From Eledone cirrhosa (lineage: Eukaryota): a stretch of 64,000 nucleotides of DNA. Below are positions 42 to 63,819 of the stretch, one piece after another. The DNA lies in contig OZ024748.1 in assembly GCA_964016885.1 (NCBI GenBank), positions 3,968,001-4,032,000 on the forward strand, in the 5' to 3' direction. The notes under the pieces were generated by a model that was not told the DNA's origin, did not search any database, and worked only from the letters and a program-made list of their open reading frames with translations. A program made the position numbers and the translations under genes. How positions within the stretch are numbered: the first letter of the stretch is position 1; every line of letters begins with the position of its first letter.

Positions 42-262
42 TAAGAATATTTTCGAAACAGCGAGCGGGTTTGAAATTATCATAAATATAAGCTATCGCC
101 GTATTTTGACTAAAGAAATTAAAGAAATTACTTAGCCTGATATTGGGGTTAAGAACCCTCGGAGAAATGGAAAAAGATGAGTATTGACGTACATGGGAGT
201 CGAACCCACATCTTTGGTTATCCAGACCACCGTGCTACCATTTACACCAACACATCACTGTT
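42..262 (-). mobile_element. tRNA-headed SINE-like element inserted in (TA)n
   Basis: Minus strand begins with a tRNA cloverleaf (A box TGGTGTAAATGG, B box GGTTCGACTCC). The body is nearly identical to 56980-57130. Flanked by (TA)n on both sides. Confidence 0.75.
185..256 (-). pseudogene. tRNA-like cloverleaf (anticodon GGA), SINE head / pseudo-tRNA
   Basis: GATGTGT-TG-GTGT-AAATGGTA-GCAC-G-GTGGT-CTGGATA-ACCAA-AGAT-GTGGG-TTCGACT-CCCAT-GTACGTC-A. All four stems pair, with many G-U pairs and one mismatch. The short variable arm and T at position 37 argue against a functional tRNA-Ser. Confidence 0.7.
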
Positions 263-13723: not shown

Positions 13724-13766
<43 letters not shown>

Positions 13767-13768
<2 letters not shown>

Positions 13769-13968
13769 AACGAGTAGGACCCCGACGGCTGAGCTCAAGC
13801 CGTTTCGACGACTAATTCTGAACAATTCTGAGTCCAGAATTAGCCGTTGAAACGGCTTGAGCTCAGCCGTCGGGGTCCTACTTGTTCCTATTACCCACTC
13901 TACTACCCTAAGTATTGAGTACTTTGGTGCGTTATGGTCCATCTGGTTCCTTACCACATTTCCTTCGT

Positions 13969-13970
<2 letters not shown>
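13767..13970 (+). mobile_element. Hairpin-plus-tail element in (TA)n (family also at 19093, 20491, 57186, 63627)
   Basis: Arms 13767-13820 / 13835-13888, followed by an ~80-bp conserved tail. Five copies in the window. Confidence 0.85.
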
Positions 13971-14002
<32 letters not shown>

Positions 14003-14090
14003 TATTATATATATATATATATACATACGTACACGTATATGTGTGTGTGTGTGTATATGTGTATATATATGTGTATATATGTATATATGT

Positions 14091-14180
14091 GAAAAGTAAA
14101 CGGAAAACAAAGGAACTATACCGAAGAAATATATTAGTTTAACGCTTGATATAGTAGGAAAAGAGTCCCAAGGTTTCGAC
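14091..14180 (-). mobile_element. Fragment of the hammerhead-bearing family also at 17821, 20250 and 28131
   Basis: Shared atatattagtttaacgcttgatatagtaggaa. Truncated within GAAAC. Confidence 0.6.
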
Positions 14181-14353
14181 CCCCCCCCACACACATATGT
14201 ATGCTTCTTTTATACTAAAATATTGAGTACTTTATTTGATTGTGGTTTTTCCTATCACTTTGGAAAACCATTCGTAACTATATACACACACATAATACAT
14301 ACATAATTACACATGTATATATATATGTATACTCACACACACGCGCCCCCCTC

Positions 14354-17777: not shown

Positions 17778-17820
<43 letters not shown>

Positions 17821-17884
17821 CAAGCGTTAACCTAATATATCTCTTCCATATACTGAACCGATTGCGTTGTTATTTCTGTATACC

Positions 17885-19092: not shown

Positions 19093-19230
19093 CAGAATAC
19101 TCGATACTTGGGGTAGTAGAGTATGGTTATATTATAAAGAGTCAGGTCGGGACCCATTTCAACAGCTCGGTCCAGTCTGGAACTAGCTGTTGAAAAGGCA
19201 AGAGCTCAGCCGTCGAGTCCCGACTCGTTA
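19093..19230 (-). mobile_element. Diverged copy of the 13767 hairpin-plus-tail family
   Basis: gagctcagccgtcgagtccc, tactcgatacttggggtagtagag and an internal inverted repeat. Confidence 0.65.
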
Positions 19231-19254
19231 TAATATATATATAGTATACACTGA

Positions 19255-20174: not shown

Positions 20175-20335
20175 TGTATGTATGTATGTATGTATGTATG
20201 TATGTATGTATGTATGTATGTATGTACGTATGTATGTATGTATGTATGTAAAAGGTAAACAGAAATAACAACACAATCGGTACAGTATATAGAAGGAATA
20301 TATTAGGTTAACGCTTGAAATAGCAGGAAGAGGGT

Positions 20336-20370
20336 CTTAATGTTTCGGACGCTAGTTTTTCATCAGAAGG
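20336..20370 (-). ncRNA. Decayed hammerhead ribozyme
   Basis: Reverse complement reads CTT-CTGATGA-aaaac-tagc-GTCC-GAAACATT-AAG. Stem II is broken relative to the homologue at 28131. Confidence 0.6.
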
Positions 20371-20490
20371 AAGAATGAGAAATAAGATAGATTGAGGGGA
20401 CGGGCGGGATGGAATTGGAAAACATTTCTTTAGATAAAAATAACAGGTCCATTCATTTTGACATCGCTTGGATCTATATATATATATATA

Positions 20491-20615
20491 TAACGAAGGA
20501 AATGTGGTAAGGAACCAGATGGACCATAACGCACCAAAGTACTCAATACTTAGGGTAGTAGTCCAGAATTAGCCGTCGAAACGGCTTGAGCTCAGCCGTC
20601 GGGGTCCCACTCGTT

Positions 20616-20619
<4 letters not shown>
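20491..20619 (-). mobile_element. Internally deleted copy of the 13767 family
   Basis: Reverse-complement tail joined directly to one hairpin arm. TA flanks. Confidence 0.8.
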
Positions 20620-28130: not shown

Positions 28131-28165
28131 TTTCTGATGAAGGACTAGCGGTCCGAAACTTTAAG
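28131..28165 (+). ncRNA. Hammerhead ribozyme motif
   Basis: TTT-CTGATGA-A-GGAC-tagcg-GTCC-GAAACTTT-AAG. Confidence 0.7.
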
Positions 28166-28448
28166 ACTTTTTTTCCTACTATATCAAGCATTAAACTAAT
28201 ATATATGTATATATATATATCTTTATTGTTCTGTATTGTTTGCTCTGTTGTTTTACGTTTACTTTTCACACACGCATACACACAGTCTCTCTCTCTCTCA
28301 GAGCAAAAATGTGTCTTACAGGCAGATAAAGAGACAGATAGAGGAATAGGCTGAGAATCAAACAGACAGATGGTCAGATAAGAAATAGAGAGAAGAGTGA
28401 GAAAGAAGAAAGAGGAAGATAGAGAGGGGAAAGTGAAAAAAAGAGAGT

Positions 28449-57185: not shown

Positions 57186-57187
<2 letters not shown>

Positions 57188-57303
57188 AAAAGAGTCAGGA
57201 CCCCCACGGCTGAGCTCCGGCCGTTTCGACAGCTAGATCCTATTTTACCTCTACTATTGAGTACTCTGGTGCGTTATGGTCCACCTTACCACACCTTCTT
57301 TGT

Positions 57304-57305
<2 letters not shown>
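57186..57305 (+). mobile_element. Deleted copy of the 13767 family
   Basis: One arm plus the tail gagtactctggtgcgttatggtcca. TA flanks. Confidence 0.75.
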
Positions 57306-63626: not shown

Positions 63627-63628
<2 letters not shown>

Positions 63629-63819
63629 AAAAAGTATGACCCCGACGGCAGAGCTCAAGCCGTTGCGACGGTTATTTCTAGTCCAGAAATAGCCGTCGAA
63701 ACGGCTTGAGCTCTGCCGTGGGGGTCATACTTTTTCCTATTTCCCACTCTGCTACCCTAAGTATGGAGTACTCTGGTGCGTTATGGTCCATCTGGTTCCT
63801 TACCACAATTCCTTTGTTA
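63627..63819 (+). mobile_element. Hairpin-plus-tail element (13767 family)
   Basis: Arms 63627-63679 / 63686-63737, conserved tail and TA flanks. Confidence 0.85.

What the first reader, a model, noticed from the sequence alone, without database searches (positions are those of the whole stretch)
13767..13970. Half-ribozyme family: a hammerhead symmetrised into a palindrome
Seen: the right arm reads stem II' - GAAAC-GGCT-tgagctc-AGCC-GTC - GGGGTCC, that is GAAA, a 6-bp stem III, a GUC site and stem I'. Where CUGANGA should lie, between GGACCCC and stem II, there is instead the reverse complement of the GAAA-stem III-GUC segment. Five copies (13767, 19093, 20491, 57186, 63627) share this plan and end points. 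Inference: a non-autonomous element derived from a hammerhead pLTR that lost its catalytic strand yet amplified. It may be cleaved in trans by an intact partner or replicate as a hairpin.
Basis: partly seen in the sequence, partly recalled or inferred. Interest (0 to 1): 0.75.

Follow-up and report, generated by a model that had tools for sequence, protein, structure and literature searches.

The report
Palindromic strong-stop stubs of Penelope retrotransposon
This 204-base palindrome is a stub of a hammerhead-bearing Penelope-like retrotransposon; such stubs are most of the family's copies in this genome, and are likely made anew at each insertion when two copying reactions run off the RNA's start, which would lie inside the ribozyme.

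Summary
The palindrome is real, and the hammerhead 3' half is real. Its parent is a 3.6-kb Hydra-type Penelope-like element (PLE) with a telomerase-like RT, inserted in (TA)n. The parent's pLTR carries the missing strand: stem I plus a variant core (C/T)TGAGAA.

The window copy is an inverted arm (-57..-1), a 7-nt junction, a direct arm (-58..-1) and an 82-nt tail. Of 90 unbiased copies, 79 stop at or just past a hard ceiling near -62, none lies at 73-149, and 11 are long. Junctions are nearly all different (61 of 65), and stubs carry the same subfamily variants as long copies.

So stubs are most likely abortive twin-primed insertions made from the RNA's 5' leader, not a self-amplifying half-ribozyme family. 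The ceiling is about 30 nt below a TATA-like box inside loop II. A second PLE family shows the same spacing. None of 23 full-ORF copies that pass -50 stops at the ceiling, which implies a second, endless (circular or multimeric) template. No RNA data were available.

The parts
13767..13823 (-). Inverted arm: parent pLTR positions -1..-57, ending at the upstream priming site (0); no tail
   Evidence: 97% to natural parent copy L261
13824..13830 (.). Copy-specific 7-nt junction, a duplicate of arm sequence
   Evidence: junctions differ between copies
13831..13888 (+). Direct arm: parent -58..-1; 3' part of loop II, stem II', GAAA, stem III, GTC, stem I'
13849..13876 (+). 3' half of a type I hammerhead; predicted cut between 13871 and 13872 (parent -18/-17)
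   Evidence: sequence; the matching 5' half is in the parent
13889..13970 (+). 82-nt PLE tail (+1..+82); continues into the ORF leader in full copies, ATG at +174
13730..13766 (.). (TA)n target, left side
   Evidence: TATA precedes 54 of 62 inverted arms
13971..13996 (.). (TA)n target, right side
   Evidence: TA follows 86 of 89 tails
63627..63819 (+). Complete stub of an older subfamily (arms about -53 and -59, full tail)
20491..20617 (-). Inverted arm (to -59) joined to tail from +10; no direct arm
57186..57305 (+). Older-subfamily inverted arm joined to part of the tail; no direct arm
19098..19231 (-). Diverged older-subfamily stub: inverted arm, direct arm lacking stem III, tail to about +33

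Best explanation
The feature is a short insertion of a Hydra-type Penelope-like retrotransposon, made of an inverted and a direct copy of the pLTR end plus an 82-nt tail in a (TA)n repeat, and it is likely formed anew at each insertion when both target ends prime reverse transcription in the RNA's 5' leader and run off its start. Shown: the parent, its ORF, the complete variant hammerhead in its pLTR, two fixed end points (0 and +82), the hard ceiling at -57..-62, and jumps from that ceiling. Inferred: (1) the element's nuclease cuts both strands in (TA)n; (2) one end primes at +82 and the other at 0; (3) both cDNAs stop at a discrete RNA 5' end, probably the transcription start, about 30 nt below a TATA-like box lying inside hammerhead loop II, so the leader holds only the 3' half of the ribozyme and cannot cut itself in cis; (4) the two cDNA ends, often A-tailed, are joined by end joining, giving a variable centre; (5) long and full-length copies come from a second template with no end at -62, either a read-through multimer or a ribozyme-made circle.
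For: Parent: the arm continues upstream into a 3,578-nt unit with an ORF from +174. The model has pLDDT 92 and its three best PDB matches are telomerase RTs. L133 is inverted copy without tail, then pLTR, tail, ORF, pLTR, tail. Ceiling: in 90 unbiased tail-bearing copies the direct arm is <=72 in 79 (40 at 57-62), 73-149 in 0 and >=150 in 11; single arms without a partner also start at -56..-62. De novo formation: 61 distinct junctions among 65; 114 of 129 short pairs end at 0 and +82 and 1 at 0/0; the same diagnostic variants occur in stubs and in 118 long copies, and the two arms agree at 110 of 111, 105 of 105 and 123 of 123 informative pairs. One template class per event: 105 short-short, 15 long-long and 7 mixed among 127 pairs (pooled, partly query-selected loci). 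Template end: T runs >=4 at the ceiling in 26 of 98 short arms and 0 of 98 long arms; jumps from -54..-61 to positions +184..+917, including two tandem -61..+198 units in L231. Promoter: TATA-like box at -89. In family B, TATAAATA lies 30 nt above the point that none of 10 palindromes of the main subfamily passes (read by eye). Second template: of 31 copies with a long ORF, 23 pass -63, 0 stop at -50..-63, 6 stop earlier and 2 were unassigned; of 24 with a short ORF piece, 7 stop at -50..-63 and 1 passes. Literature: two internal RT start sites with the tail between them, both strands extended (PMC11167929); TSS within the pLTR (PMC2377424).
Against: No RNA evidence for the start site or for cleavage. 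The cap-G test is inconclusive: the base 5' of -58 is T in 76, G in 12, C in 7 and A in 3 of 98 short arms. The ceiling also lies just 3' of the predicted apex of the loop II hairpin, so RNA processing could make it. The TATA-like box of this family is imperfect in most copies. About half of the parent copies have C3 with A8, a mismatch (45 of the first 100 listed, hand count). In the young subfamily the predicted folds prefer competing hairpins even when constrained; only an older copy (L010) folds as a hammerhead. Rfam finds no hammerhead at gathering score in 6 loci. If the start is at -62, it is unexplained how any RNA that starts further upstream is made. 7 of 127 pairs mix long and short arms, and one short read-through copy (L294) has segments reaching -83. 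One family B single arm (L320) starts 3 nt above the ceiling.
Confidence: 0.7

Rival explanations
1. The -62 end is made by RNA processing, not transcription start: a cut near the apex of loop II, or 5' trimming stalled by the bound protein. The rest of the model is unchanged.
For: The ceiling lies just 3' of the predicted hairpin apex. Full-ORF copies never stop there. 3' ends of short templates cluster at about +130..+280, like a footprint. The cap signature is inconclusive.
Against: In family B the ceiling is at the start of stem I, not in a loop, and exactly 30 nt below a canonical TATAAATA. This family has a similar box at about the same distance.
Confidence: 0.12
2. Snap-back: a single cDNA primed at +82 reaches the RNA end, folds back and copies itself to make the inverted arm. 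This is akin to the self-priming proposed in PMC3846280.
For: The two arms nearly always share variants. Some junctions are fold-back duplicates, including the window copy.
Against: The inverted arm stops at 0, not +82, in 114 of 129 pairs. It is often longer than the direct arm (57 vs 18 in L179 and L182; long vs short in L102, L130, L153). Inverted-only copies exist. Both strands are extended in vitro (PMC11167929).
Confidence: 0.1
3. One reading: one or a few palindromic master copies are transcribed and mobilised in trans, and each new copy's centre is broken and repaired afterwards.
For: Thousands of near-identical short copies. Long palindromes are unstable at their centres (recalled). 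A few junctions recur (3 copies of 62/62; two pairs of 2).
Against: Arms without a partner stop at the same ceiling. Jumps start from it inside tandem units. Stubs appear in every parent subfamily seen. Priming a palindromic RNA at both sites should leave tail-less double palindromes, but 0/0 pairs are 1 of 129.
Confidence: 0.06
4. A MITE or non-autonomous Helitron/Helentron with a chance hammerhead-like motif.
For: Hairpin shape, fixed ends, TA flanks; Helitrons are abundant here (150 scored matches).
Against: No terminal inverted repeat (7 of 25 terminal bases match) and no family sequence in 30 Helitron loci. Arm and tail are 97% identical to the end of an RT element.
Confidence: 0.01

Closest known systems
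Hydra clade of C-terminal EN+ PLEs (Craig et al. 2021, PMC8557442)
   Same: Short single ORF, DKT, CxCX5C linker, no CCHH, CxxC and CxH motifs, (TA)n targets, inverted 5'-truncated copy, tail at one end.
   Different: RWR in place of RWK; unit 3.6 kb rather than <3 kb; tail 82 nt rather than 30-40; variant core with a long loop II rather than a canonical hammerhead; 79 of 90 copies are fixed-ceiling stubs.
Poseidon PAc of Anolis (Frangieh et al. 2024, PMC11167929)
   Same: Two internal RT start sites downstream of the hammerhead with the tail between them; AT-rich target; both strands extended.
   Different: That work is in vitro and found no reads at the ribozyme site. Here the evidence is genomic: a run-off ceiling, head-to-head joins, jumps, and a peak of ends at the predicted cut.
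PLE minimal hammerheads incl. U3-A8 variant of Schistosoma Cercyon (Cervera and De la Pena 2014, PMC4209133)
   Same: Type I motif in the pLTR, A8 core with U3 in about half of copies, palindromic loop 3, pairs on opposite strands.
   Different: Stem III is 6 bp, loop II is about 35 nt and holds a TATA-like box, and most copies carry only the 3' half.
Non-LTR retrozymes (bioRxiv 10.64898/2026.07.22.740005; part 1 of 5 read)
   Same: Non-coding, derived from a PLE pLTR.
   Different: Retrozymes are head-to-tail tandems with a complete hammerhead in each unit; these are head-to-head, half-ribozyme and probably dead on arrival.
Minus-strand strong-stop DNA of LTR elements (recalled)
   Same: Priming near the RNA 5' end gives a short run-off cDNA.
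   Different: Target-primed, two primers, and integrated as a palindrome rather than transferred.

Membership tests
EN+ Penelope-like element (parent) | Telomerase-like RT | tested here: met
   YRDD invariant in 118 sequences; three best fold matches are TERT. Pfam gave no family.
EN+ Penelope-like element (parent) | C-terminal GIY-YIG endonuclease | tested here: inconclusive
   VIY...YIG with downstream R, H, E, N read by eye; no profile or fold match to the domain among the listed hits.
EN+ Penelope-like element (parent) | pLTRs, inverted 5'-truncated copy, optional tail | tested here: met
Hydra clade | DKT motif | tested here: met
Hydra clade | RWK motif | tested here: inconclusive
   RWR in this family
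Hydra clade | CxCX5C linker, no CCHH, CxxC and CxH around E and N | tested here: met
   CxCX5C intact in L299, last C changed in L133; CNLC and CKH present
Hydra clade | (TA)n targeting | tested here: met
   86 of 89 and 54 of 62
Hydra clade | Canonical hammerhead | tested here: not met
   Core is (C/T)TGA(G/A)AA; no Rfam match. So called Hydra-type, not filed as a member.
Hydra clade | Position in the RT tree with named Hydra elements | not tested
   No named reference sequences were fetched.
Type I hammerhead (parent pLTR) | Core, GAAA, NUH, stems I-III | tested here: inconclusive
   All parts present with A8; U3-A8 in about half of copies; hammerhead fold is the predicted minimum only for L010.
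Type I hammerhead (parent pLTR) | Self-cleavage after GUC | not testable with these tools
   Indirect only: 10 of 28 arm starts fall at -17.
Type I hammerhead (window copy) | Catalytic CUGANGA strand | tested here: not met
   Absent
Non-LTR retrozyme | Head-to-tail units each with a complete hammerhead | tested here: not met
   Head-to-head, half motif; the tandem units in L231 also lack the core
MITE / TIR element | Terminal inverted repeats | tested here: not met
   7 of 25 terminal bases
Helitron/Helentron derivative | Ends shared with a Rep/helicase element | tested here: not met
   No hit in 30 Helitron loci with 1.5-kb flanks only; ends belong to an RT element

The most novel reading that the evidence does not exclude
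This PLE nests its promoter inside loop II of its own hammerhead. The 5' leader is therefore a half-ribozyme that cannot cut itself, while the downstream pLTR can. The leader yields only strong-stop palindromes, about nine in ten insertions. Productive full-length copies come only from a ribozyme-made circular or multimeric RNA, possibly after the downstream catalytic strand cuts the leader half. The genome would then record, at base resolution, the two templates of PLE replication and a job for the PLE hammerhead.
Probability: 0.3. Interest if true: 0.8.

Novelty: new variant of a known kind. Interest (0 to 1): 0.58.

Why it matters
How PLEs make their inverted and tandem structures, and what their hammerheads do, are open questions in the papers read. 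Here thousands of insertions give exact coordinates to test: priming at 0 and +82, an RNA end at -57..-62, a cut at -17, and a separate template for full-length copies. It is also an annotation warning: hairpin repeats in (TA)n that look like MITEs or half-ribozyme SINEs can be abortive PLE products. Two families in this genome each have more than 8,700 exact-match copies.

Tried and rejected
Pattern GACCCC-N0-6-CTGANGA: chance level; the 30 loci read held no intact hammerhead of this family. Rfam on the window: no hammerhead among the 150 listed of 372 matches; none at gathering score in 6 loci. Pfam and PDB sequence searches named nothing. RNA runs: no RNA holder listed; this says nothing about expression. 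Contigs of runs X1-X3 (one sample, kind unknown, possibly the assembly's source) cover arms and tail deeply with a trough at the centre; not counted as independent support. Cap-G test: inconclusive. One search used a wrong boundary and its pair counts are void; redone. Ungapped arm lengths were replaced by gapped ones, where T runs and the inner stem III palindrome inflate some values (63-72; 37). Naiad was considered for the (TA)n target and rejected, because the nuclease-like part is C-terminal. Earlier scan notes: none found. Literature searches listed no paper on fixed-ceiling palindromic PLE stubs. Repbase, Dfam and most subscription papers were not searchable, and no supplements were opened; Craig et al. 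files S1 and S2 may list this or a related family.

Full report
Coordinates: position 0 is the boundary between arm and tail. Negative numbers run upstream in the parent, and +1..+82 is the tail.

1. Observation. The window copy is a ~60-bp hairpin plus an 82-nt tail between (TA)n runs. The genome is 3.0 Gb. A DNA search scored 40 of 2,451 candidates, and all 40 were full length at 93-100% identity. In 30 of them the ends and arms are fixed while the centre varies from copy to copy.

2. Parent. Flanks of fetched loci (L055, L010) showed the right arm preceded by unique sequence. A search with that sequence found a repeated long element. All 30 loci continue into the arm, some with the tail and some ending at 0. 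L133 holds an inverted copy without tail, a short direct pLTR with tail, the ORF, the 3' UTR, and pLTR with tail; its frame is shifted near the start. The unit is 3,578 nt with the ATG at +174; none of the 40 loci examined had an unbroken ORF inside the fetched stretch (longest 677 aa, cut by the locus end). The protein has 2,155 relatives among 7,999 candidates. Pfam names nothing, but the model's best matches are telomerase RTs. Motifs fit the Hydra clade as described in section 11 of PMC8557442, except RWR for RWK and the non-canonical ribozyme. No tree was built.

3. Ribozyme. The parent pLTR has ACCCC at -108, a core (C/T)TGA(G/A)AA, stem II around a ~35-nt loop, GAAAC at -40, a 6-bp stem III with a palindromic loop, GTC, and GGGGT at -17. 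The 5' strand has 1,553 exact matches; 55 of the first 100 listed have U3 (hand count). U3-A8 is a reported PLE variant (PMC4209133). C3 with A8 should be impaired (inference from the C3/G8 mutants in PMC11167929). Predicted folds favour a hammerhead only for an older copy, and Rfam finds none. Among 50 distinct loci from the first 100 of 207 rows, 28 lack an inverted arm. Ten of these start at -17 (nominal P = 7e-6 for one of 15 positions); two of the ten could be longer arms with a CpG change. This fits cleavage in vivo, but a pause at the base of stem III could give a similar peak.

4. Unbiased sample. I took the first 90 of 8,748 exact tail-junction matches, all on one contig. Direct arms are <=72 in 79, 73-149 in none and >=150 in 11. 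Forty lie at 57-62; the eight at 63-72 appear to be mostly alignment run-on into T runs or junction sequence. An inverted arm was found in 65, with 61 distinct junctions. Non-templated A/T runs sit at the ceiling in 26 of 98 short arms and in 0 of 98 long arms. Short pairs end at 0 and +82 in 114 of 129, at +82/+82 in 3, at 0/0 in 1, and elsewhere in 11. Diagnostic variants are shared with 118 long copies, and both arms agree in nearly every pair. Arm lengths are concordant in 120 of 127 pairs (pooled loci, partly selected by query).

5. Two templates. The tail-to-ORF junction has 73 exact matches. Sixty were fetched and 55 tallied; five were dropped for identical flanking sequence (L272, L273, L285, L289, L294), and they fit the same pattern at the upstream boundary. 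Of 31 copies with a long ORF, 23 run past -63, none stops at -50..-63, six stop earlier and two were unassigned. Of 24 with a short ORF piece, seven stop at -50..-63, 14 earlier, two were unassigned and one passes; that one (L293) is a long copy with an internal deletion. Many short ones show a jump from -54..-61 onto +184..+917; L231 repeats a -61..+198 unit twice. One jump starts at -17 (L238), and one copy has segments reaching -83 (L294). So one RNA class has a 5' end near -61, and the class that gives full-length copies does not.

6. What makes the end. A TATA-like box starts at -89, 27-32 nt above the ceiling, inside loop II; TCATTT and TTAGTC at -64 and -60 resemble initiators (consensus recalled). 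Family B (8,749 exact matches) has the same plan with a canonical core. Of 30 loci, 11 are long, 12 are short palindromes and 7 are single or truncated. In the 10 palindromes of the main subfamily no arm passes the A lying 30 nt below TATAAATA; one single arm starts 3 nt higher (by eye). There the ceiling is at the start of stem I, so those palindromes keep the core. A start site explains both families. The cap test was inconclusive, and no RNA was available.

7. Mechanism. PMC11167929 showed in vitro that a PLE cuts and extends both target strands from two internal sites at the pLTR-ORF junction, with the tail between them. Applied to the first junction of a transcript that starts in the pLTR (PMC2377424), this predicts two short run-off cDNAs joined head to head with a tail on one side, which is the window element. 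The missing catalytic strand follows from where the RNA starts, not from loss in a new family. How the upstream-containing template arises is unexplained; circles were proposed in PMC4209133. My odds: PLE origin about 0.97, de novo formation from a discrete RNA end about 0.8, that end being the start site about 0.75, both together about 0.7.

8. Novelty. Inverted truncated copies, tails, (TA)n targets and U3-A8 cores are known. I found no description of a fixed run-off ceiling, a promoter inside loop II, or the split between two templates in searches.

Papers seen: PMC8557442, passages plus sections 10 and 11; PMC11167929, parts 1-2 of 4; PMC4209133, parts 1-2 of 4; bioRxiv 10.64898/2026.07.22.740005, part 1 of 5; PMC3846280, PMC13282606 and PMC2377424, passages only. 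No supplements were opened. The host looks like an octopus; that is a guess from recall and comes from no call.

Noticed in passing
L301-L330, L005, L058, L121, L134: A second very abundant family (B) with the same inverted arm, direct arm and tail plan, a shared TATTGAGTAC tail motif, a canonical hammerhead core and a TATA box 30 nt above its arm ceiling; its ORF was not examined.
   Followed up: partly
window 35026(-), 25073(+), 56514(+), 62175(+), 9386(-), 3128(-), 26518(-), 4435(+)/4348(-): Many other hammerhead-core repeats, some with plausible stems; 4348/4435 form an inverted pair.
   Followed up: no
window 14090-14290, 20286-20372, 28134-28270, 17816-17852: Another repeat family with a core-like motif and a shared pyrimidine-rich tail; the 14090 copy abuts a further TATTGAGTAC tail.
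   Followed up: no
L231/L232 (G000:C1:27.01 Mb): Tandem of a 259-nt leader unit (-61..+198) with a repeated junction; could reflect a small RNA circle, repeated jumps or later duplication.
   Followed up: partly
L252, L278, L248, L277, L289: Leader-derived segments end at +816..+917 in five loci, twice at +917; possibly a premature termination site.
   Followed up: no
G000 C19, C20, C27, C16: Near-identical Helitron Rep domains recur at roughly 100-kb spacing, as if part of a very large tandem unit.
   Followed up: no
window 185-256 (-): tRNA-like match, 46.8 bits against a gathering score of 29; may be a SINE head.
   Followed up: no
unit positions 2822-2868; window 12539, 34633, 43018, 46364: A ~45-nt piece of the parent's 3' UTR matches another dispersed repeat.
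   Followed up: no
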